The notes under the pieces: model-generated
Databases searched by the model: none
What the model saw: only the letters and a program-made list of their open reading frames with translations
What the model was told of the DNA's origin: nothing
Part shown: positions 4,991 through 46,827 of the stretch, one piece after another
Layout of the letters: each line of letters begins with the position of its first letter
How positions within the stretch are numbered: the stretch's first letter is position 1
Origin: Narcine bancroftii
Taxonomy: Eukaryota
DNA: 64,000 nt
Direction: 5' to 3'
Assembly: GCF_036971445.1 (NCBI RefSeq)
Contig: NC_091478.1
Coordinates: 62,930,001 to 62,994,000, forward strand
Position numbers and translations under genes: made by a program

Positions 4991-5489
4991 TTGCACATCT
5001 CAAAGTGTGCTGACTGCTGCATCATGGTCTGGTATGAGAACACCAATACCTCTGAGCGTAAAACCACCAGAAAGGTACTAGACGCAGCCAAGGCATTTCA
5101 GGCAAAACCCTAGAACATCTACAGGGAACAGTTGCCCTCCTGTTCTTGATGATCCTACCGACGGATTAAACCCAATCTGATTATCTACCCCCTGTGCTTC
5201 TCATCTCGTCCATATTTCTAACGATAACCATATATAAATTTTAAATTTAGACATACAGCACGGTAACAAGCCCTTTCTGCCCACCAGCCCGACCCGCCCA
5301 ATTTACACCCAATTGACCTACAAAACCGGTATGTTTCTAAAGGTGGGAGGAAACCGTAGACCCGCGGAAACCCCACGTTTACAATGGACGGAAATTCTTT
5401 CTTGCTGCAGCCAAGCAGGTCCTCCGTAAAAAAAATCGACACCATCTACATTCAATTAAAGAAGGGATAATATTACAAGCTGCAGTATG

Positions 5490-5750
5490 GGATTCTAGGA
5501 CAAGAGGGCACAACTTCAGGATAAAAGGGCTAATAATTTCCTTAGCCAGAGGGTGGTGAGTCTGTGGAACTTGTTCCCACAGGCGGCTGTGGAAACCAGA
5601 TCGTTGGGAATATTTAAGGAAGAGATTGGCAGGTATTTGATTAGTCAGGGCATCAAGGGTTACGGGGAGAAGACCTGGGAGTGCGGCTGAGTAGGTGGAT
5701 GGATACAATAACGGAGAAGACTCGATGGGCCTACTTCTGCTCCAAAATCT
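5490..5750 (+). mobile_element. CR1 LINE 3' fragment (also in copy B, about 39390-39650)
   Basis: CR1-type C-terminal remnants (GACAAGAGGGCACAAC..., AGGGTGGTGAGTCTGTGGAAC, TCGATGGGCC). Confidence 0.75.
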
Positions 5751-5904
5751 TGTTACGTTGCAAGATACATGATGTTTGAGCATTACAGGATTAGTGTGAG
5801 AAGGGGGCGTTGTTTCGAGGGTAAATTCATCACAAATCATACTTTCTATATATTAAGTCGTCAAGGTGAATTCAGGAGGGCAAGAAATTAATGCATTTCA
5901 AGCT

Positions 5905-6060
5905 CCTACTTTTCCCCTTCCTCAATTATCGGTGCCAAACTCTGAAACGACGTCGTCTAATTATTTTCAACATATAAATTCAACATCCCAACGCTCACTT
6001 CCAGGATGTGATAAGCCCCGGCAACTCGTCATACAACCCAAACGTCAGACGTCGCTTCAC
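5905..6060 (+). promoter_or_regulatory. Candidate proximal promoter of gene A
   Basis: TTCCCCTTCCTC (ETS/PU.1-like), CACTTCC (ETS), TGATAAG (GATA) and AACGTCA (CRE half-site) within about 200 bp of the ATG. All are conserved in copy B (about 39810-39965). Short motifs, so function is inferred. Confidence 0.4.
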
Positions 6061-6108
6061 ATTTAACAGTGCTCCTTACTGCAAGGTCATTTGAATCCCC
6101 TATTCAGA

Positions 6109-6133
6109 ATGGTTCTCCTTCTGCTTCTCCGAG
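6109..6133 (+). CDS. Gene A exon 1: leader peptide MVLLLLLR
   Basis: ATG plus hydrophobic run, phase-1 donor G|GTAATA; 15 nt shorter than the gene B leader. Confidence 0.8.
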
Positions 6134-6249
6134 GTAATATTTAACCAGTACCATTTTGTTCCTTGTTCTACTTATTTAGTTCTCTCTCTTTATCTCCCAT
6201 CTCGATGCCGGCCTCACCGATTTAATTGCGCCATGTTACATTTTCTCAG

Positions 6250-6573
6250 CAGTTGCAGATCAGCGAGGTTTTCATGTAAATCAATTACCCAAAGAAACCA
6301 GTATACCAGTCGGGGGAAATGTTACCTTTTATTGTGTGTTGCCCATCATCCGCGACAAGTCCAGTGTGAAGGTCTACTGGTGGAAGGAGGGTGAGAATGC
6401 ATACCAACACAGCGATGTCGCCAATGGAAAACGATATGGTCTCCGAGGTAGAGCAAGTTGGTACTTTGAGTTGTGCAAAGCAACTGTCCAAGATTCTGGA
6501 GTATATCGCTGTTCCGTCATCGGTCCGGAAATGGTTGCAATCAATGGAAGTGGATCGCGTCTAATTGTTCACG
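6250..6573 (+). CDS. Gene A exon 2: Ig V-set domain, germline-joined VJ type
   Basis: Acceptor TTTTCTCAG and donor G|GTAAAT, phase 1-1, 324 nt. Translates AVADQRGFHVNQLPKETSIPVGGNVTFYCVLPIIRDKSSVKVYWWKEG...YFELCKATVQDSGVYRCSVIGPEMVAINGSGSRLIVH, with B-strand Cys, C-strand Trp, DSGxYxC and J-like GSGSRLIV. Confidence 0.95.
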
Positions 6574-7206
6574 GTAAATCATATTAACGGGAAAAGCAAA
6601 CAGCGAATAACTGTCTGAACAATAAGAAACGGAAAGGCTGGTAGACAGACCATGATTTGTCGATACCCCTCTACCCGCTCAATGAAGATGAGGAAGGCAG
6701 AGATTCTGCCGCCCGTCTCCCAACTCGTACAGTTCGCGGTTAAGTTCATGCCCGCCCGAAGAGTCTTTCTGCAACGTGGCACAAAGCTTTATGGATTCTC
6801 ATTTGTATTGTCTGGTATATTCACCATCCTCACCCAGGCCCCCATCCTATAACTATTTTGTCTGATGTGGATCAAACAACCTGCAAATAAAAGCATTCCT
6901 CAGCCATTCTATACTCAGACGATCATCGCTCCACCATTGTCCGAGTACATTGCGGGAATAATATCGCAAGTTATCAGTAGCAAAAAAACACCATTGAAAA
7001 TGGTGGAAGGAGAAGGCAACCACCCATTCACTCCCCCGCCCCGCACACTCACACACACCTTTAACCTTTCCCTTTTTAATTCGGCGGAGAAGCTCGTTCG
7101 TGCTCATTTTTGTTCATGGAATATTGGTTACTTCCCAATTACTTACAGGAAAGAATTAGTCCGCATTCTGTCTTTCTCACGCAACATTGACAGATTTGTT
7201 TCTTCT

Positions 7207-7452
7207 GGGGCTACACGGTAGGCAAAGCGGTTCGCGCAACGCTGTTAACAGAGGCAGCGACCGGGAACGGGGGTTCGACTCCCGCGCTTTCTCCCAGTGT
7301 CTGCGTGGATTTTTCTCCGGGCTCCGGTTTCCTCCCACAATTGAAAATGTACCAGAATCGTAGGTTAATTTCGTGTAATTGGGCTGCACGGACTTGTGGG
7401 CCGAAATGGCCTGTTATCGTGCTGTAACTTTAAATTTCAATTTTTAAATTTA
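7207..7452 (+). mobile_element. tRNA-derived V-SINE-type element
   Basis: tRNA-like head with B-box GGTTCGACTCC, central GCGTGG..TTCTCCGGGCTCCGGTTTCCTCCCAC, tail GGGCCGAAATGGCCTGTT. Related fragments on the minus strand near 5240-5380 and 39140-39280. Confidence 0.8.
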
Positions 7453-8252
7453 AGCCAGTGTTTGTAAAGTATGATTATTCATACAACACAATTAGTATCG
7501 CAATTTATTATCTTGTTATTAGAATGGAATATGATCCATTATGAATTAAACATTATATGTCTATTTCACATCCGTGACGTGAAATTACGGACCAATGTTC
7601 AATTTCCCAGCGAATCAAAATCCATCATTTTCATTAATTCCAACCGAAAGAAGGAGCTCGAAACCAATTCTTGTTTTGGAGAGTTTTTGCCGCTAACCAT
7701 CCCCAATGTACTAGTGTCATGTTAGTTTGAAAGGTTGCAAAGACAAAATATGCAACTTATATCATTGCAAAGAAACCACTGAATCCACTGTCCTTGCCTT
7801 GGATAAAGAAAGTAACACTACCTGTTGAGTAACAAAATTATTGGCTTTCTTTCAGCAATTGTTATGCCCAGGTTTTCAGTCTAATACTGCCCTCAGTAAC
7901 TCGCTTTATCATCTAAGACATGCGGAATATTCTTCGCTATCAGTGTGCAATAATCACGGAGGAGCTCTCATTATAAAATACCCCGACATCCTCGCACAAA
8001 GTGTTCTTAGTGGATTATTTGGATTACGAATGGGGAAAACGACTTTCTGACGGAGGGTTTGGTTCGGCCTGTATCCCAAATATTCAGATATGTTAGTTAA
8101 GTGAACAGATAACGACTTCTTCTGTTTTACGGGGGATTGGGATTTTCAAATAGCATAATTCGAATTAATAAATGAGACTGGGAAAGAATTGTTTTATAAT
8201 TTCCCAGTCATTGGATTAAATTAATTCAAATCTTTATTTACTCGTATTTCAG

Positions 8253-8549
8253 TGGCGCCAACTCCACTGAAAATCTACTCCAAGACTGTTGATGGGAATC
8301 CACTCACTAGACATGTTCTCGTATGCGAAACGGCTGCATTTTACCCGGAGAATCTCACCCTAATTTGGTACTGAAATGGAACGAAAATCACAGCGGGAAC
8401 TCATACAAGAAAAGAGAAGAACGCGGAGGGACTGTATGTAGTTTCCAGCGATTTAACCTACAGCAACGGCGAGGATCAATATGCCTGCAAGGTATATCAC
8501 CTCTCTCTCCAGACTCCAGCCGTTGCCAGGTATTCTGTTGCGAAACAAG
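8253..8549 (+). pseudogene. Gene A exon 3: Ig C1-set domain with in-frame TGA at 8372-8374
   Basis: Acceptor GTATTTCAG and donor G|GTATGT, phase 1-1, 297 nt. Translates VAPTPLKIYSKTVDGNPLTRHVLVCETAAFYPENLTLIWY*NGTKITAGTHTRKEKNAEGLYVVSSDLTYSNGEDQYACKVYHLSLQTPAVARYSVAKQ. C1 hallmarks: C..FYP, W, N.xG.Y, YxCxVxH. Confidence 0.92.
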
Positions 8550-9008
8550 GTATGTCGTCAACAGTCTAGTGAGTCGTGATTTGTTGTAAATGCCTTGATG
8601 CATTGTATAAATTCTTGCAGTTAATAATTCCGAAATTAAATCATTCAAATTCCATGGGGAAATATCGGATGGAGCATTGATTTCATTTCCAATTTGTAAA
8701 AGAAAACCTGTGCGTCTGAGGCATGGCCAGTCAAATGCCGTTGGCAATCATTTTTTCAAAAAATTGCTGCGCTACAAAAGCATAGAGATATTAATCGTTC
8801 ACGTTTTGTACCCACCTCATTATCATTAGGTTTCTTTTGTTTGCGATTTTAAGTGTGTCAGAGTTTTGCTCTACCACCATCTCTAAACTTCTTGACTTCA
8901 CGATGAAATGGCTGTCTTTTAAAGTATTTAACATTTGTTATAGTTCAAATAAAAATGATTAATCATCATAAGACAGATGAAATATTTAACGTTCCTGATT
9001 CATTTCAG

Positions 9009-10379: not shown

Positions 10380-13090
10380 TTTGGCTGCATTACTAACACA
10401 CTGTTCAGATTGCTAAGCAAGCTCAACTGCACATGGAAAGCTGGCATCTCGTTGACTATGTCATCACCCGACAATGGGACATCTCTGATGTTGGTATCAC
10501 CAGAATTAAGCGTGGAGCTGAGTGCTCAACTGATCATCAAATGGAGTGGTTGGATCTATGTTTATCGATCAAACCTTCAAGCAGACTGATTGCAGCCAAA
10601 CCACCCAAAAAGCTGAACACCACCAAATTGAAACACCGTGAATGTGGCAATGCACCTAAATCCTCCATGGAAACTACACTAAGCAGACTGGTTGAGAATC
10701 CACCAGATGATATTACTGAGCACAAGAATGCTTTCAAAGAAACAACTTATGGCACTGTTTAGGACACTTTGGGGAAAGTCAAGCCCAAACATCAGGATTA
10801 GTTTAATGAGTACAACCAATTTGGCACAAGACCTTCTAATAGCTAAGACAGTTGCACACCAAGCTTGTCTTCAACACCCAAACTCAAGTTCCAAAAAGCA
10901 TGCCTTTTTGAGTGCAAAATCAACTTTGCAGAAGCAGCTCAGAGATTTCCAAGACCAGTGGTGGATGAACAAGGCCAAGGAGTTACAAGCCTTCGCTGAC
11001 TGTAATGACTCAAGAATGAAGCAATCAAGGTTGTCTATGGTCCATCAAAGCAAGGTACCTCACAACTCTTGAGCAAAGACAGTAACTCCATCTTAACTGA
11101 AAAGTCAGAGCACATGAAAAGATGGCAAGAACCCTTCTATGAGCTGTTGGATAGATTAGGAATCATCACCGATGAAGCACTGGGTACCCTCAACTCATAT
11201 TGTTTGAGCCAGATGCTCCCCCCTACTCTTCACAAGGTCATCAAAGCCATCAAACAGCTAAAACCCAACAAAGCACCAGAGCCTAATGGTATTGCAGCTG
11301 AGATCTACCAGTATGGTGGCAACACACTGATATCATGCCAACACCAGCTGTTCACAAAGTTGTGGGAAACTGCAAAACTACCACAAGACTTCAAAGGCGC
11401 ATTAATCCTGACCATCTACAAGAACAAGGGAGGCAAGAAAAATTACAAAAATTATCGTGGACGTCTCTCTTCTGTCAGTTGTGGGAAAATGCCTTGCAGA
11501 GATCACCCCTAGCTGTTTGGTGTCTGACATCAATGACAACATCCTTTCACAAAGCCATTGTGGTTTTCGAGCAGGCCGAAGCAGAGTGGATATGATTTTC
11601 TCACTGAGGCAGCTTCAAGAGAAATGTGTGGAGCAGCAGATAAGTCTCTGTCACATTTGTTGATCTAACCAAAGATGGCCTACAGAAGCTCTTACCAAAT
11701 TTCAGTTGCCCTCCTCCCATGCCTAACCAACATCATCCCTGAATTCCACAAGGTATGGAAGGCTGCATCAATATGTGTGATGAGTTGTCAGACATATTTC
11801 CCATCTCCAATGGTGTAAAACAGGGTTAAGTTTTGGCCCCTACACTGTTTGGACTATTCTTCACAGTTGTTCTTCAAGATGCCACATCAGACCTGAAGTT
11901 AGGGGTCTTCCTAAAAATGAGGGCTGATGATGGGCTTCTCAACCTCGCAAGACTTAGATCAAAAACAAAGGTCAAGGACATAGTTGCGCATGAGCTATAG
12001 TTTGTTGATGACTGTGTACTGGTTGTCCACTCTCTCAAAGACTTACATGAGATCACCAGTCACTTTGCCAGTTCTGCCAAGAGATGCAGATTGACAATCA
12101 GCTTTAAAAAGACAGAAGTTTTTGACCAACTGGCCCCTTGACCAAGTTACGAAGAACCAACTTTCCTCATTGATGACATTCTTCTCAATGCTGCCAACAA
12201 ACTTGGGCAGCACAATAATATCCTCAGCTTCGCTAGATGTAGAGATTGAATCAAGAACCAGAAAGGTTTGCTTTGCTGAAAGATCAGGTTTGGTCAGAGA
12301 GCATCAGGTTGGCCAGCAAGTGCAAGGTGTACAGGGCCACTGTCATATCAGGTATGTCGTCAACAGTCCAGTGAGTCGTGATTTGTTGTAAATGCCTTGA
12401 TGCATTGTATAAATTCTTGCAGTTAATAATTACGAAATTAAATCATTCAAATTTCATGGGGAAGTACTGATTTCATTTCCAATTTGTATGAAAAACTTGT
12501 GCGTCTGAGGCTTGGCCAGTCAAATGCCATTTGCAATCACTTTTTTTTATTTGCTGCACTACAAAAGTATAGAGATATTAATCGTTCACATTTTATACCC
12601 ACCTCATTATCATTAGGTTTCTTCTGTTTGCGATTTTTATATGGATATGAGACATGGTGCCCATATCAGAGTCACTTTTGTCAGATTGACCAACTGTGGC
12701 GGCATCATTACGTTCTCTGATGAAAATCACCTGTGGCGAGACAAGGCCTTCAATATCAAGGTCCTTTCTAGAGCCAGAATGCCAGCAGTTTCATCATTAG
12801 TGATGTCAGGCCAACTGTGCTGGGAAGGACATGTTGTCAAAATGCCTGACAGAAAACTGCCCAAGGACATATTGTAAAGCCAACTGTACCCAAAATTGAG
12901 GAGGCCAGTGACTACAGTACAAGGATGTTCTGCACAAGAGTCATAAGAAAGATGGCATTGCCCCATCAACATGGCTCAAGATTGCTTGCAGTGGAGGGAC
13001 CCCATCAGAAAAGGTTTGCATGCTGTTGGAGAACAAGCTCCAAGAAGCAACAGAGGAAAGGCACAGAAAGCAAGCAGAAGAAGACAATTG
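10380..13090 (+). mobile_element. Old RTE-clade LINE (endonuclease and RT remnants), interrupted at 12350-12637
   Basis: WHLVDYVITR, KAPEPNGIAAEIY, GFRAGRSRVDMIFSLRQLQEKCVEQ, GVKQG..LAPTLF and GHVVKMPDRKLPKDIL, with many frameshifts. Confidence 0.9.
12350..12637 (+). repeat. Third copy of the C1 donor site and first about 290 bp of the downstream intron
   Basis: AGGTATGTCGTCAACAGTCCAGTGAGTCGTGATTTGTTG... aligns to 8548-8850 and 41263-41565. Confidence 0.9.
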
Positions 13091-13294: not shown

Positions 13295-13660
13295 GGCAGA
13301 ATTTCAAGAGTAAACTCAAAAACAAATCTGTTTCTATTTCTTAAGTTGTCAGGGTGAATTTGTGAGGCCAAAAAAAATTAATGCATCTAAAATTGCATTT
13401 TTTAACAAAAAAATACTATCTGGACTATGAATTATGGATGTTTTACAATTTACATTTGCTTTTTATATGATTGTTTTATTAATTATGTTTAACTATTCAT
13501 ATAATCTCATTATATTTTTATTATTATAAACTTTTCATTAAAATCAATAAAAATATTTTAAAATACAAAAAAGATAATCGCATTTTCCCCTTCCTGAATT
13601 ATGGGTAGCAAACTCTGAGACAATGTCAAATAATGCACTTTAATATAAATTTGGCATTCT
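13295..13660 (+). repeat. Diverged third copy of the receptor upstream/promoter region
   Basis: TTAAGTTGTCAGGGTGAATT..AAATTAATGCAT and TTTTCCCCTTCCTGAATTATGGGTAGCAAACTCTGA align to about 5805-5985; split by an AT-rich insert at about 13400-13580. Confidence 0.75.
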
Positions 13661-15618: not shown

Positions 15619-15735
15619 ATTGTGTCTTCATACGTCCTTCCTTGTACATTAGATATGCTGTGGGTTTGACCTTTCTGTTCCTGGCCATCGTTTGCCTTAC
15701 CATTGGGGCGCGTAGTCAATTACCCATTTATAAAG
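15619..15735 (+). CDS. Activating-type transmembrane exon (Arg in TM, stalk Cys)
   Basis: Acceptor TTATTCTTTCAG and donor AAAG|GTACGT, phase 1-1, 117 nt. Translates DCVFIRPSLYIRYAVGLTFLFLAIVCLTIGARSQLPIYK. Confidence 0.8.
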
Positions 15736-16062: not shown

Positions 16063-16969
16063 TTCCCTCAATTATGCATCATTGTAAATGCTCAACTTTG
16101 AAGGATATCGATAACATACAGATATTTTCTCATGTGCAGAATGCATTCATGGTATATTTATTCAAACAGCACACCTGACTTGTAGAAACATACACATCAC
16201 AATGAAAAACATATTTGTCAGGGGAAGTCGTGTATCTCATCCTCATGGTGAAATATATTTCCCGAAGAATATATGAGGGTGTTGCACCATCTTTTGGCAG
16301 ATACTTTATTGGCTGTTTCTGATTCAAATGTAACCAAAAGCAGACTGAAAATTGGAATGATTAATTTGCAGAAAATGTACCTATTTATGGGACTAATTTT
16401 AAATAATCTTTATGTATTGAAGACAGGTGTTTGTACATTTTATTTATGGAGTAATAGGCTTCCTCCAGCCTCTTGCACTAGGCTAATTGCAAAGCACAAT
16501 GTAAAGAGAACTGTTTAAAATATCCGCCGGGACTGAAAAAAGGAATGTAAGGATTTCAATCTCACACTTAGTATTCAACCTGGGTGACTTACAATGCACT
16601 GATGTTACATATTGTATTTGACATTTCAGGTAATCAATATGCTGGTGTTCATTTCTCCCTCCAGCAGGCTTCTACAGTTCCTCTCCACTGGCTCAATAAT
16701 TGGTTTAATCTGACCACATTTTGCTTATCTATTTCAACTTATCCACCAACCATCTTCTCAAAATAATACCAAAGGCTTTCTATAAGAATAAAGAATAGGC
16801 ACAGATTATTTGGTAAATAGGTAACTAATAGAACGCCATTATATTCAACTGTAATATATGACTATATGAGGCATGAGGTATTTGTTGTATGTGGAGTAAA
16901 TACGAAGAATTTCTGATGTGCTGGTTGATGGGGTTTTCATTTCATTGGGCCTTTTCATACATATTACTG

Positions 16970-38910: not shown

Positions 38911-40010
38911 CGCGGTGACCGGATCCGATTCATCATCTCCTCGGGCAGTGAGTTCTACATATTAATGAATCTCCGTGTAAAAAAAAGGATCTTTCAGATC
39001 CCCTTGAAACCTTCCTCGCATCTTGAACCGATGCCCTCCCGTTCTTGATGATCCAACCGACGGAGTAAACCCAATCTGATTATCTACCCTCTCTGTTCTT
39101 CTCATCTCGGCCATATTTCTAACGATAAATATATATACATTTTAAATTTAGCACGGTAACAAGCCCTTTCTGCCCACCAGCGCGCGCCGCCCAATTTATT
39201 CACAATGAACCTATAAAACCCGGTACTTTTCGAACAGTGGGAGGAAGGAAACCATAGACCCGGGGAAAACCCACTCATTCAATGGACGGAAATTCTTTCT
39301 TGTTGCAGCCGAGTTGGTCCTCCGTAAAAAAAGTCACCCGTCCACATTCAATTAAAAAAGAGATAATAATTTCAAGCTGTAGTATGGGATTCGAGGACAA
39401 GAGGGCACAACTTCAGGATAAAAGGGCGTCAATTTAAGAGAAGCGGAATAGTTTCCTTTGCCAGAGGATGGTGAGTCTGTGGAATCCAGATCGTTGGGTA
39501 TATTTAAGGAAGACATTGGCAGGTATTTGATTAGTCAGGGCATCAAGGGTTACGGGGAGAAGACCTGAGAGTGGGGCTGAGTAGGTGGATGGATCAACTC
39601 ATGATAGAATAACGGAGAAGCCTCGATGGGCCTAATTCTGCTCCAAAATCTTGTTATCAATGTAAGAAGCATGATGTTTGAGCATTGCAGGATTAGTGGG
39701 AGAAGGGGGCGTTGTTTCGAGGGGAAATTCATCACAAATCATACTTTCTATATATTAAGTCGTCAAGGTGATTTCAGGAGGGCAAGAAATTAATGCATTT
39801 CAAACTCCTACTTTTCCCCTTCCTCAATTATCGATAGCAAACCCTGAAACGATGTCAACTATTTATTTTGAACATATAAATTCAACATTCCAACGTTCAC
39901 TTCCAGGATGTGATAAGCCCCGGCAACTCGTCATACAACCCAAACGTCAGACGTCGCTTCACATTTAACAGCGTTCCTGACTGCAAGGTCATTTGAATCC
40001 CTTGTGCAGA

Positions 40011-40050
40011 ATGTCAGGGACTGCGATTGTTCTCCTTCTGCTTCTCCGAG
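40011..40050 (+). CDS. Gene B exon 1: leader peptide MSGTAIVLLLLLR
   Basis: AGAATG context, hydrophobic core, phase-1 donor G|GTAATA. Confidence 0.85.
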
Positions 40051-40166
40051 GTAATATTTAACCAGTACCATTTTGTTCCTTGTTCTACTTATTTAGTTCT
40101 CTCTCTTTATCTCCCATCTCGATGCCGGCCTCACCGATTTAATTGCGCCATGTTACATTTTCTCAG

Positions 40167-40490
40167 CAGTTGCAGATCAGCGAGGTTTTCATGTAAATCA
40201 ATTACCCAAAGAAACCAGTATACCAGTCGGGGGAAATGTTACCTTTTATTGTGTGTTCCCCATCATCCGCGACAAGTCCAGTGTGAAGGTCTACTGGTGG
40301 AAGGAGGGTGAGAATGCATACCAACACAGCGATGTCGCCAATGGAAAACGATATGGTCTCCGAGGTAGAGCAAGTTGGTACTTTGAGTTGTGCAAAGCAA
40401 CTGTCCAAGATTCTGGAGTATATCGCTGTTCCGTCATCGGTCCGGAAATGGTTGCAATCAATGGAAGTGGATCACGTCTAATTGTTCACG
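40167..40490 (+). CDS. Gene B exon 2: VJ-type Ig V domain
   Basis: 324 nt. Differs from gene A at two positions by eye (CVF vs CVL, and a silent TCA/TCG); same splice sites. Confidence 0.95.
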
Positions 40491-40993
40491 GTAAATCATA
40501 TTAACGGGAAAGGCAAACAGCGAATAACTGTCTGAACAATAAGAAACGGAAAGGCTGGTAGATAGACCATGATTTGTCGATACCCCTCTACCCACTCAAT
40601 GAGGATGAGGAAGGCAGAGGTTCTGTCGCCCGTCACCCAACCCGTACAGTTCGCGTTTATGTTCATGCCCGCCCGAAGAGGCTCGCTGCAACGTGACACA
40701 AAGCTTTATGGATTCTCATTTGTATTGTCTAGTATATTCACCATCCTCACCCAGGCCCCCATCCTATAACTATTTTGTCTGATGTGGATCAAACAACCTG
40801 CAAATAAAAGCATTCCTCAGCCATTCTATATTCAGAAGATCATCGCTCCACCATTGCCTGAGTACCTTGCGGGAACAATATCACGTTATAAGTAGCAAAA
40901 GGGAACCATTGAAAATTGTGGAAGTAGAAGATAACCACCCATTCACTCCCCCCGCCCCATACACTCAATCATTATCTCTCTGTCTCTTTCTCT

Positions 40994-41151
40994 NNNNNNN
41001 NNNNNNNNNNNNNNNNNNNNNNNNNNNNNNNNNNNNNNNNNNNNNNNNNNNNNNNNNNNNNNNNNNNNNNNNNNNNNNNNNNNNNNNNNNNNNNNNNNNN
41101 NNNNNNNNNNNNNNNNNNNNNNNNNNNNNNNNNNNNNNNNNNNNNNNNNNN
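40994..41151. other. Assembly gap (158 N)
   Basis: N run. The collinear interval in copy A (about 7070-8436) is about 1.4 kb and includes the 5' part of the C1 exon. Confidence 0.99.
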
Positions 41152-41264
41152 TGTAGTTTCCAGCGATTTAACCTACAGCAACGGCGAGGATCAATATGCC
41201 TGCAAGGTATATCACCTCTCTCTCCAGACTCCAGCCGTTGCCAGGTATTCTGTTGCGAAACAAG
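41152..41264 (+). CDS. Gene B exon 3 (visible 3' part): C1-set domain
   Basis: VVSSDLTYSNGEDQYACKVYHLSLQTPAVARYSVAKQ, identical to 8437-8549; donor G|GTATGT. Confidence 0.9.
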
Positions 41265-41838
41265 GTATGTCGTTTAACAGTCCAGTGAGTCGTGATTTGT
41301 TGTAAATGCCTTGATTCATTGTATAAATTCTTGCAGTTAATAATTCCGAAATTAAATCATTCAAATTCCATGGGGAAATATAGGATGGAGCATTGATTTA
41401 ATTTCCAATTTGTATCAAAACCCTGTGCGTCTGAGGCATGGCCACTCAAATGCCGTTGGCAATCATTTTTTCAAAAAATTGCTGCGCTACAAAAGCATAG
41501 AGATATTAATCGTTCATGTTTCATACCCACCTCATTTTCATTAGGTTTCTTTTGTTTTCAATTTTAAGTGTGTCAGAGTTTTGCTCTACCACCATCTCTA
41601 AACTTCTTGTCCTTCTTGGAACTCTTAAATCTGCAGTTTGCTTTGCAAATTAATTTGGACTACATTCAATCAATTTAGAAACTTCGAGTATTAATTATGT
41701 GCACATCATTTGTTCTGTATTTATTGCTATTTTCATGTTCACTCGTGTACAGCGTAATTCCACCCAGTTGTGTTTCAGCCCTATTCTGACCGCTCCACTC
41801 ACAAATGGACAAAGAATGTGTTTAACATGAAAACCTAA

Positions 41839-46476: not shown

Positions 46477-46827
46477 AGAGAAGAGAACAACATGGTACAT
46501 TATGTTGCAATACATTTCGACACGTCCAGGAAGGCCACAAAACAAAAACGTCTTGACGCAAGGCATGCTTTTGATCAGGTGAGTGTAAATAACGGTGTAG
46601 AGAGTTCATTAATTGGATACTATTTCTCAAGCATACGATTTGAGCAGCACATCCCAAAACAAATGAAAAAGCCAAATAGCAGTATTTTCTCAATTGCCTT
46701 TACAGAAAATGCAAGGGGAACCAGCACAGAGTATAGGATAAACTGCAAAGAGAGCACAGAATATGCGGAGGTGAAAACAAAAAAAGACCGCGGAGCAACA
46801 GAGGCGCTTTATTCAACAATAAGATAA
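46477..46827 (+). CDS. Gene B terminal cytoplasmic exon with ITIM/ITSM motifs
   Basis: Acceptor GAACTTTTCAG, phase 0, open to TAA. Translates REENNMVHYVAIHF...STEYAEVKTKKDRGATEALYSTIR*. VHYVAI fits ITIM, TEYAEV fits ITSM, ALYSTI is ITIM-like. Confidence 0.82.
   Translation, partial: REENNMVHYVAIHFDTSRKATKQKRLDARHAFDQVSVNNGVESSLIGYYFSSIRFEQHIPKQMKKPNSSIFSIAFTENARGTSTEYRINCKESTEYAEVKTKKDRGATEALYSTIR

What the first reader, a model, noticed from the sequence alone, without database searches (positions are those of the whole stretch)
6112..6590. Gene-conversion signature: leader intron and V exon nearly identical between A and B, flanks more diverged
By eye, the 116-bp leader intron is identical, the V exon differs at 2 of 324 nt and the visible 113 nt of C1 are identical. 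The first about 210 nt of the V-C1 intron show roughly 14 differences, and the upstream region has many substitutions and indels. An identical intron next to a diverged one points to recent conversion keeping the ligand-binding domains matched, as known for paired receptors.
Basis: partly seen in the sequence, partly recalled or inferred. Interest (0 to 1): 0.7.

Follow-up and report, generated by a model that had tools for sequence, protein, structure and literature searches.

The report
Ray paired receptors share converted exon
Neighbouring immune-receptor genes of an electric ray share an almost letter-perfect leader intron and binding-domain exon inside flanks that differ by about 9%, likely because gene conversion copied the stretch between predicted inhibitory copies and a predicted activating, probably damaged, copy, a pattern already known from mammal and frog receptor pairs.

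Summary
Observation confirmed. A and B differ at 2 of 479 nt over 6112-6590 (116-nt intron identical), against 8-9% in the flanks; 0 of 20,000 permutations match this.

The genes belong to a ten-gene cluster of non-rearranging V-C1 receptors of a ray. B and its tandem copies C-E have a neutral transmembrane exon and an ITIM. A lacks both; a candidate Arg-bearing (activating-type) transmembrane exon lies at 15619-15735.

Conversion is well supported. In the tract A is closer to B (2/483) than B is to C (5/483), the reverse of upstream, and one site pair shows four gametes. Two more patches lie in the cluster: broken gene F (5/294 inside, about 70% identical outside) and pair H/I (2/667). A DNA run argues against a collapse artefact.

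That selection keeps binding domains matched is not shown. A has a 15-nt leader deletion, a C1 stop codon, and no transcript or protein model was found.

The mechanism is known (CEACAM, SIGLEC11/16, KLRC). I found no paper on this family, but this scan noted similar shark and skate pairs before on other DNA.

The parts
5126..8894 (+). Gene A 5' cassette (upstream region, leader, V, C1): the block homologous to B, with sharp ends and unalignable sequence beyond
   Evidence: self-BLAST; ends printed
6112..6594 (+). Homogenised tract (leader 3' part, leader intron, V exon, 21 nt of next intron); against C/D it extends to about 6740
   Evidence: 2/483 A-B, 5/483 A-C/D, 3/483 A-E; 6595-6760 A-C/D 4/166 vs A-B 10/166
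6109..6133 (+). A leader exon MVLLLLLR, 15 nt shorter than in B-E (MSGTAIVLLLLLR); no upstream in-frame ATG before the nearest stop
6134..6249 (+). Leader intron, GT..AG, 116 nt, identical in A, B, C, D, E
6250..6573 (+). A V exon: germline-joined V-set domain with J-like G strand NGSGSRLIV
   Evidence: Pfam V-set E 1.9e-7; translation
8253..8549 (+). A C1 exon with in-frame TGA at 8372-8374; second low-divergence island (4/297 vs C/D, flanked by 10-14% diverged intron)
   Evidence: Pfam C1-set E 2.2e-11
12350..12637 (+). Older copy (88% to A) of the post-C1 intron start, sitting inside LINE-like coding sequence
   Evidence: LINE identity of the flanks is recalled from the motif, not tested by a family search
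15619..15735 (+). Candidate transmembrane exon of A (117 nt, phase 1-1, AG/GT): CVFIRPSLYIRYAVGLTFLFLAIVCLTIGARSQLPIYK, Arg at the outer end of the membrane segment
   Evidence: scan; family TM profile iE 0.043, rank 10 of 16,328 ORFs; Arg column shared with P0046, P0026, P0027, P0025; splicing to A not shown
39025..41609 (+). Gene B 5' block homologous to A
40011..40050 (+). B leader exon
   Evidence: spliced B-type contig in run X6
40051..40166 (+). B leader intron, identical to A's
   Evidence: intron skip seen in X6 contig (table 5)
40167..40490 (+). B V exon
   Evidence: 100% identical to the V of P0001
41152..41264 (+). Visible 3' part of B's C1 exon; the 158 N before it are fewer than the 184 nt of exon that A has there, and copy E joins a CA repeat straight into mid-C1, so B likely lacks the C1 5' half (inferred)
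   Evidence: P0001 skips C1
42653..42766 (+). B transmembrane exon, no charged residue in the membrane segment
45400..45443 (+). B first cytoplasmic exon
46477..46578 (+). B cytoplasmic exon with ITIM VHYVAI (IHYVAI in C/D)
46706..46817 (+). B terminal exon; read as KMQGEPAQSIG in P0001, while the family's TEYAEV / ALYSTI motifs lie in another frame

Best explanation
The near-identical leader-intron-plus-V stretch is likely a recent non-allelic gene-conversion tract, exchanged at the DNA level between gene A and the tandem B-E copies of a ray V-C1 receptor cluster, where B-E carry an ITIM tail and A is a predicted activating, probably damaged, partner. Shown: A's 3.8-kb 5' cassette is 8-14% diverged from B-E upstream and in the deep V-C1 intron, but 0.4-1.3% diverged over leader-intron-V and over C1; the copies are mosaics; B-E have a neutral transmembrane exon and an ITIM exon; A has no such exons. 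Inferred: (1) A's cassette arose as a copy of the inhibitory gene's 5' half placed in front of a much older Arg-bearing transmembrane exon. (2) Later DNA-mediated conversions (the intron is included, so not via mRNA) re-matched the two Ig exons, the islands where homology stays high. (3) While A worked, this gave an activating receptor, likely signalling through an ITAM adaptor, with the same binding surface as the inhibitory copies. The direction of transfer is not determined.
For: Rate contrast: 0 of 20,000 permutations; also significant for non-coding columns alone (P=0.0035) and silent sites (P=0.018). Incongruence: upstream A differs from each of B-E at 85 of 936-948 sites while B-E differ at 0; in the tract A-B is 2/483 but B-C is 5/483; in 6595-6760 A groups with C/D (4/166) rather than B/E (9-10/166). 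Four gametes at 6341/6426 among six copies. The intron can diverge: F's leader intron matches A's at only 66 of 93 columns. Repeats in the cluster: F carries a 294-nt patch at 5 differences from A inside a gene about 70% identical elsewhere; H and I differ at 2 of 667 nt over leader, 165-nt intron and V, then 26 of 148 in the next intron, with H carrying LTYASL and I an Arg-bearing TM exon ending in a stop. Not a collapse: DNA run X1 has one 517-nt contig over the tract at depth 32 against 12-14 for single-copy A sequence, plus a separate A-allele contig at 6341; a model with A diverged over the whole tract predicts 24-25. A's TM exon is not alignable to B's at DNA level (69 of 200 shuffles score as high), so it is far older than the cassette. 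Arg-TM short-tail and ITIM forms both occur among the family's shark and ray proteins.
Against: A looks damaged (leader deletion, TGA in C1). No A protein was found among longer or near-length hits, and the RNA-guess contig over the leader is B-type only. The TM exon's profile score is marginal (iE 0.043; the next ORF scores 0.09), and its motif is LYIR, not the NxxR of FcR-gamma-binding receptors (PMC2413239, passages). V domains of this family can be very conserved between species (Hypanus P0025 vs Mobula P0015 96%; Leucoraja P0079 vs Amblyraja P0074 97%), so selection may contribute to exon identity. The depth model cannot decide the intron alone (expected 35-37 if shared, 32-33 if only the intron differed; observed 32-33). 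Among 106 V domains I found no within-species Arg/ITIM pair at 80% or more in another species (the collections are clustered, which can hide such pairs). One four-gamete pair could be recurrent mutation. No outgroup genome was available.
Confidence: 0.72

Rival explanations
1. Conversion is real but neutral: it persists only in islands where homology stays high, A is a dead gene, and no selection for matched binding domains acts.
For: A has two lesions; broken F also carries a patch; C1 is homogenised although it is stopped in A and truncated in E and likely B; low-divergence windows also occur in non-coding sequence.
Against: The H/I tract ends within 4 nt of the V donor and joins an ITIM gene to an Arg-TM gene; both converted sets in the cluster cross the ITIM/Arg-TM divide; skipping C1 would keep A's V and TM exons in frame, as in B's model P0001. 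This rival overlaps the best explanation on mechanism and differs on purpose.
Confidence: 0.35
2. Purifying selection alone keeps the exons and the short intron alike.
For: V proteins of this family are 96-97% identical across some species pairs; short introns carry splice signals.
Against: Silent V sites 1 of about 72 and core intron 0 of 80 against 8.1% flanks (P=0.018, 0.001); F's intron is 71% identical; A is nested inside B-E diversity in the tract; the F patch starts mid-exon.
Confidence: 0.08
3. Assembly artefact: collapsed or mis-polished reads made the tract identical.
For: The B-E array looks over-counted against run X1: B-type upstream contigs have depth 22-26 and C/D-type intron about 5, against 12-14 for single-copy sequence; a 67.5-kb stretch from B's C1 onward matches the stretch one unit downstream at 99.5%. 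Only contigs, not raw or long reads, could be laid.
Against: A keeps private alleles in the tract (6341, seen as its own contig in X1 and X2); no diverged extra contig was laid on the intron at 85% likeness although diverged upstream contigs were; whole-tract divergence predicts depth 24-25, observed 32-33; the F patch and H/I pair show the same pattern.
Confidence: 0.04
4. A single recent unequal crossover made A a chimera of an old promoter and a new body.
For: The left boundary is sharp at the start codon.
Against: Divergence returns to 10-14% after the tract, falls again over C1 and rises after it; one crossover cannot make islands bounded on both sides.
Confidence: 0.05

Closest known systems
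Xenopus ceacam paired receptors (ceacam301/303, 350/351; PMC5112662, passages read)
   Same: Ligand-binding V-type exon nearly free of silent changes between an ITIM gene and an activating-type gene, with poorly conserved flanking introns.
   Different: There conversion is restricted to the N exon and partners are in opposite orientation with ITAM-like tails. Here the leader intron and C1 are included, partners are in the same orientation, the activating feature is a TM arginine, and the family is V-C1.
SIGLEC11/SIGLEC16(P) (PMC5701461, passages read)
   Same: A 5' block with upstream DNA and Ig exons shared between an inhibitory and an activating gene, a younger tract (97-99%) inside an older block (88-93%), and a non-functional activating allele taking part in conversion.
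   Different: Primate sialic-acid lectins with shown binding and expression, head-to-head; here ligand, expression of A and direction are unknown.
Merohomogenization of KLRC, KLRA, KLRB, KLRI, PIR (PMC3210942, abstract and first part of Discussion read)
   Same: Homogenisation limited to the ligand-binding part while signalling exons stay old and distinct.
   Different: That paper requires interspecies orthology of both signalling types; I could not run it at DNA level.
SIRP-alpha/beta/gamma
   Same: Joined-VJ V domain plus C1-set domain; ITIM and charged-TM forms; automatic names of many homologs say SIRP-like; SIRP-alpha 2wng is among the top profile hits (E 7.7e-29).
   Different: One C1 rather than two (SIRP architecture recalled); Arg rather than Lys (recalled); SEP-domain and Vps16 genes are on C5/C15 and C9, not on C22; antibody chains and UrIg2 score as high or higher.
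Non-rearranging VJ(-C1) genes UrIg/UrIg2, NKp30, PRARP (PMC12227049 abstract and passages, PMC10751288 and PMC11599192 passages)
   Same: Unsplit VJ exon with GxG motif followed by a C1 domain in a cartilaginous fish.
   Different: UrIg2 has ten Ig domains and is AgR-complex linked; these genes have one V, one C1 and ITIM or Arg-TM ends; MHC linkage not tested.

Membership tests
Paired opposing receptors homogenised by gene conversion | Ligand-binding exon near-identical at silent sites while flanks diverge | tested here: met
Paired opposing receptors homogenised by gene conversion | Regional tree incongruence or reticulation among paralogs | tested here: met
   A nested among B-E in the tract, outgroup upstream; one four-gamete pair
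Paired opposing receptors homogenised by gene conversion | One partner with ITIM and uncharged TM | tested here: met
   B-E: VHYVAI/IHYVAI, neutral TM; by sequence motif only
Paired opposing receptors homogenised by gene conversion | Other partner with an activating feature (charged TM or ITAM) | tested here: inconclusive
   Arg-TM exon candidate at 15619-15735, marginal profile score, splicing not shown
Paired opposing receptors homogenised by gene conversion | Both partners intact and expressed | tested here: inconclusive
   B-type spliced contig seen in one RNA-guess run; A has leader deletion and C1 stop, no model found; C1 skipping or an intact allele not excluded
Paired opposing receptors homogenised by gene conversion | Signalling types older than speciation, binding domains grouping by species | tested here: inconclusive
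   Arg-TM and ITIM forms in other species; no within-species pair at 80% or more among 106 V domains; no relative's DNA available
Paired opposing receptors homogenised by gene conversion | Shared ligand and opposite signalling | not testable with these tools
   needs cell assays
CEACAM-type loop conversion (PMC5112662) | Partners in opposite transcriptional orientation | tested here: not met
   A-F and H/I are all on the + strand
FcR-gamma-associating TM class (LILRA, PIR-A, NKp46, GPVI, XFL TM1) | NxxR motif at the TM N-terminus (PMC2413239, passages) | tested here: not met
   A reads LYIR: Arg present, Asn absent
SIRP | V-C1-C1 ectodomain (recalled) | tested here: not met
   one V and one C1 exon per gene
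SIRP | Linkage to NSFL1C / VPS16 region (markers recalled) | tested here: not met
   SEP-domain hits on C5 and C15, Vps16_C on C9; cluster on C22; only two markers tried
SIRP | CD47 binding | not testable with these tools
   no job sent
Non-rearranging VJ-C1 genes (UrIg, PRARP, NKp30 group) | Germline-joined VJ exon with GxG G strand | tested here: met
   single exon ending NGSGSRLIVH
Non-rearranging VJ-C1 genes (UrIg, PRARP, NKp30 group) | MHC or AgR-complex linkage | not tested
   only flanking gene found: a rho-class GST exon about 80 kb upstream, 1 of 140 ORFs scanned out of 585 candidates

The most novel reading that the evidence does not exclude
An ancient Arg-bearing transmembrane exon acts as a fixed activating socket that has been re-fitted several times with the inhibitory gene's ectodomain: first a V patch converted into its original partner F, then a whole 3.8-kb promoter-leader-V-C1 cassette (A) dropped between F's C1 and the TM exon, then fresh conversions of A's two Ig exons. 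With H/I this gives two separate brake-accelerator sets in one cluster of an apparently undescribed cartilaginous-fish receptor family, with C1 lost twice (stop in A, deletion in E and likely B) towards V-only receptors. Basis: six related V exons but five TM exons found, none between F's C1 and A.
Probability: 0.25. Interest if true: 0.62.

Novelty: new member of a known kind. Interest (0 to 1): 0.45.

Why it matters
It extends exon-level homogenisation of opposing immune receptors, known from mammals and frogs, to a cartilaginous fish and to a non-rearranging VJ-C1 family that I did not find described in nine paper searches. One cluster holds three conversion patches of different extent, including one in a broken gene, so it is a natural test of whether selection or bare homology decides where tracts end. 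Converted pairs point to the family members likely chased by pathogens (inference from the CEACAM and Siglec cases). The mechanism itself is not new, and A may be dead.

Tried and rejected
RNA support for A's TM exon: three RNA-guess runs (X6-X8) gave no contig on 15619-15735; contigs only, so this is no evidence of silence. No holder on record as RNA was listed. Protein model of A: none among proteins of 58-188 aa or 189-2000 aa. Cytoplasmic exon of A: no hit between 8550 and 39000 among the 32 best tail-profile hits; an acceptor at 16630 would give GNQYAGV..., untested. Run X5 (organism B) as outgroup: its contigs match B/C/D-type sequence almost exactly by difference counts and are too shallow (depth 2-6) to cover A-specific parts, so it was not used. 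V-domain tree: the first extraction caught only 16 domains; redone as pairwise identities on 106. The P0074/P0079 pair looked like a second-species paired set but is two skate species. My A_TM query was in the wrong frame; redone. My H leader guess was wrong; the leader was taken from P0083. Synteny scan: 140 of 585 candidate ORFs, only a GST, LINE and integrase pieces. Paper search for PRARP returned unrelated uses; the skate/MDIR search returned 0. No structure or complex prediction was run. No supplements were read; those of the shark MHC and UrIg2 papers could list these genes. Absolute dating was not attempted (no rate from a call).

Full report
Observation. Treating each gap as one difference, the best 480-column window (6112-6591) has 2 differences where permutations give 24 on average; none of 20,000 reached it. 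The same holds against copies C and E. Without exon columns the result stays significant (P=0.0035), and silent V sites show 1 change in about 72 (P=0.018); C1 silent sites alone do not reach significance (P=0.077).

What the genes are. The exons are a V-set and a C1-set domain, the V with a germline-joined J-like end. B's V is identical to P0001, a leader-V-TM-tail model labelled Narcine bancroftii. The genome holds six close V copies within 155 kb and four more distant V-C1 genes further on, all on C22. In window coordinates: F at -5435, A at 6109, B at 40011, C 75034, D 110797, E 147863, G about 245000 (minus strand), H 339088, I about 390700, J about 427400. B-E are tandem units about 35-37 kb apart. 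Homologs come from sharks, rays and chimaera under automatic names such as SIRP-like or tapasin-related (42 hits; 123 hits including unrelated multi-Ig proteins).

Signalling ends. B-E each have an uncharged TM exon and an exon with VHYVAI or IHYVAI. A's homology with B stops at 8894 and no B-type TM or tail exon follows. A scan for hydrophobic phase-1 exons in 8550-39000 left two candidates with donors, one a low-complexity repeat and one at 15619-15735. A TM profile built from 50 family proteins, the three labelled Narcine left out, ranks this exon tenth of 16,328 ORFs (iE 0.043), behind nine TM exons of B, C, D, E, G, H, I (two) and J, but only just ahead of the next ORF (0.09). Its Arg aligns with the Arg of short-tailed homologs (FRYTVGG in P0046, IRCTVGG in P0026, SRCVMGG in P0027, LRCAMG in P0025), where ITIM members have Gly. 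An Arg at the outer end of the TM marks FcR-gamma-associating receptors (PMC2413239, passages), though their NxxR motif is not met. The exon cannot be aligned to B's TM exon as DNA, so it is much older than the 8-14% diverged cassette in front of it.

Evidence for conversion. Upstream, A differs from every one of B-E at 85 sites and B-E do not differ by substitution. In the tract A-B is 2 of 483 while B-C is 5 of 483. In 6595-6760 A sides with C/D (4 of 166) against B/E (9-10 of 166). Deeper in the intron A is again the outlier (A-C 28 of 275 and 42 of 309), C1 falls to 4 of 297, and the post-C1 intron rises to 15-23 of 345. Sites 6341 and 6426 give all four gametes among six copies. The broken gene F is 70-74% identical to A in leader intron, V start, later intron and C1, yet differs at 5 of 294 nt over the V 3' part and 54 nt of intron; it shares the 6341 allele with A only. 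H and I differ at 2 of 667 nt across leader, 165-nt intron and V, then at 26 of 148 nt right after the V donor; C1 differs at 7 of 297 with unalignable introns around it. H has LTYASL; I has a neutral and an Arg-bearing TM candidate, the latter ending in a stop. Because introns are included, the transfer was DNA-mediated (inference).

Artefact check. In DNA run X1 (contigs only; possibly the source individual) single-copy A sequence has depth 12-14, the tract is one contig at depth 32, and A's private 6341 allele has its own contig. A k-mer model predicts 35-37 if A shares the tract, 32-33 if only the intron differed, 24-25 if the whole tract differed; observed 32-33. So a whole-tract artefact is excluded, and depth alone does not settle the intron; the absence of any extra diverged contig on the intron at 85% likeness argues for real identity. 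The same run suggests only about two diploid B-type copies, not four, so the array is either copy-number variable or over-assembled; this does not change the A-B result.

Against a live pair. A's leader lacks 15 nt and its C1 has a TGA. No A protein was found. The spliced RNA-guess contig has B-type alleles and the full leader. A C1 contig in that run has C at 8372 but ends at 8409, so it may come from C/D or from an intact A allele. C1 skipping would keep A's V and TM in frame, as in B's model. V proteins of this family are 96-97% identical between some species, so selection may add to exon identity, but it does not explain the intron, the silent sites or the mid-exon F boundary.

Comparison. 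The pattern is that of Xenopus ceacam pairs (PMC5112662, passages), SIGLEC11/16P, where a non-functional activating allele took part (PMC5701461, passages), and the merohomogenization of KLRC and PIR (PMC3210942, abstract and part of Discussion). It works like these; membership is met for the conversion signature and the ITIM partner, and inconclusive for the activating partner and expression. The family is not filed as SIRP: one C1 and no linkage to two recalled markers. Nine paper searches found no description of it. This scan's notes report similar paired V-C1 genes in skate and shark genomes; my reading was written before seeing them, and they are not independent support. Look-ups by place and by sequence gave nothing.

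Verdict. Real feature; conversion likely (about 0.85 for the mechanism, 0.72 with the paired-receptor setting); present selection for matched binding not shown. New member of a known kind; interest 0.45.

Noticed in passing
G000:C22 about 63,268,950-63,269,616 (L039) vs 63,320,561-63,321,227 (L044): Second pair H/I: 2 of 667 nt differ over leader, 165-nt intron and V exon, boundary at the V donor; H has an ITIM, I an Arg-TM exon ending in a stop. Cleaner than the A/B case.
   Followed up: partly
L011:4560-4970 (gene F, window -5435 to -5034): Broken old paralog with a 294-nt converted V patch; its left edge lies next to a G-run tract matching a G-quadruplex pattern that replaced part of the V exon. 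No TM exon of its own was found.
   Followed up: partly
window 39025-74000 and L012-L021 (copies B-E): Depth in run X1 fits about two diploid B-type copies (C/D type about one haploid copy) where the assembly has four; copy-number variation or haplotype stitching.
   Followed up: partly
copy E, window-equivalent 148846-148968; B 40950-41264: E joins a long CA repeat directly to the middle of C1, losing the acceptor and 5' half; B's model skips C1, giving a V-only receptor.
   Followed up: partly
window 46706-46817: B-E terminal exon carries the family's TEYAEV and ALYSTI motifs out of frame with the annotated splice, leaving one ITIM.
   Followed up: no
window 12350-12637: A 288-nt older copy of the post-C1 intron, starting at the splice donor, interrupts LINE-like coding sequence; looks like a templated insertion.
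   Followed up: partly
window 13583-13632: 50-nt piece 84-86% like the proximal upstream region of A and B-E; unexplained.
   Followed up: no
copies C/D V exon: C/D differ from B at three residues close together (A50T, G59R, G63C) and have a 12-nt upstream deletion; upstream of V, B-E show 0 substitutions while their second introns differ by 4-6%.
   Followed up: no
L064:560-925: Exon of a rho-class glutathione S-transferase about 80 kb upstream of the cluster; a possible synteny marker.
   Followed up: no
window-equivalent 313718-313922: A further degenerate V fragment between G and H.
   Followed up: no
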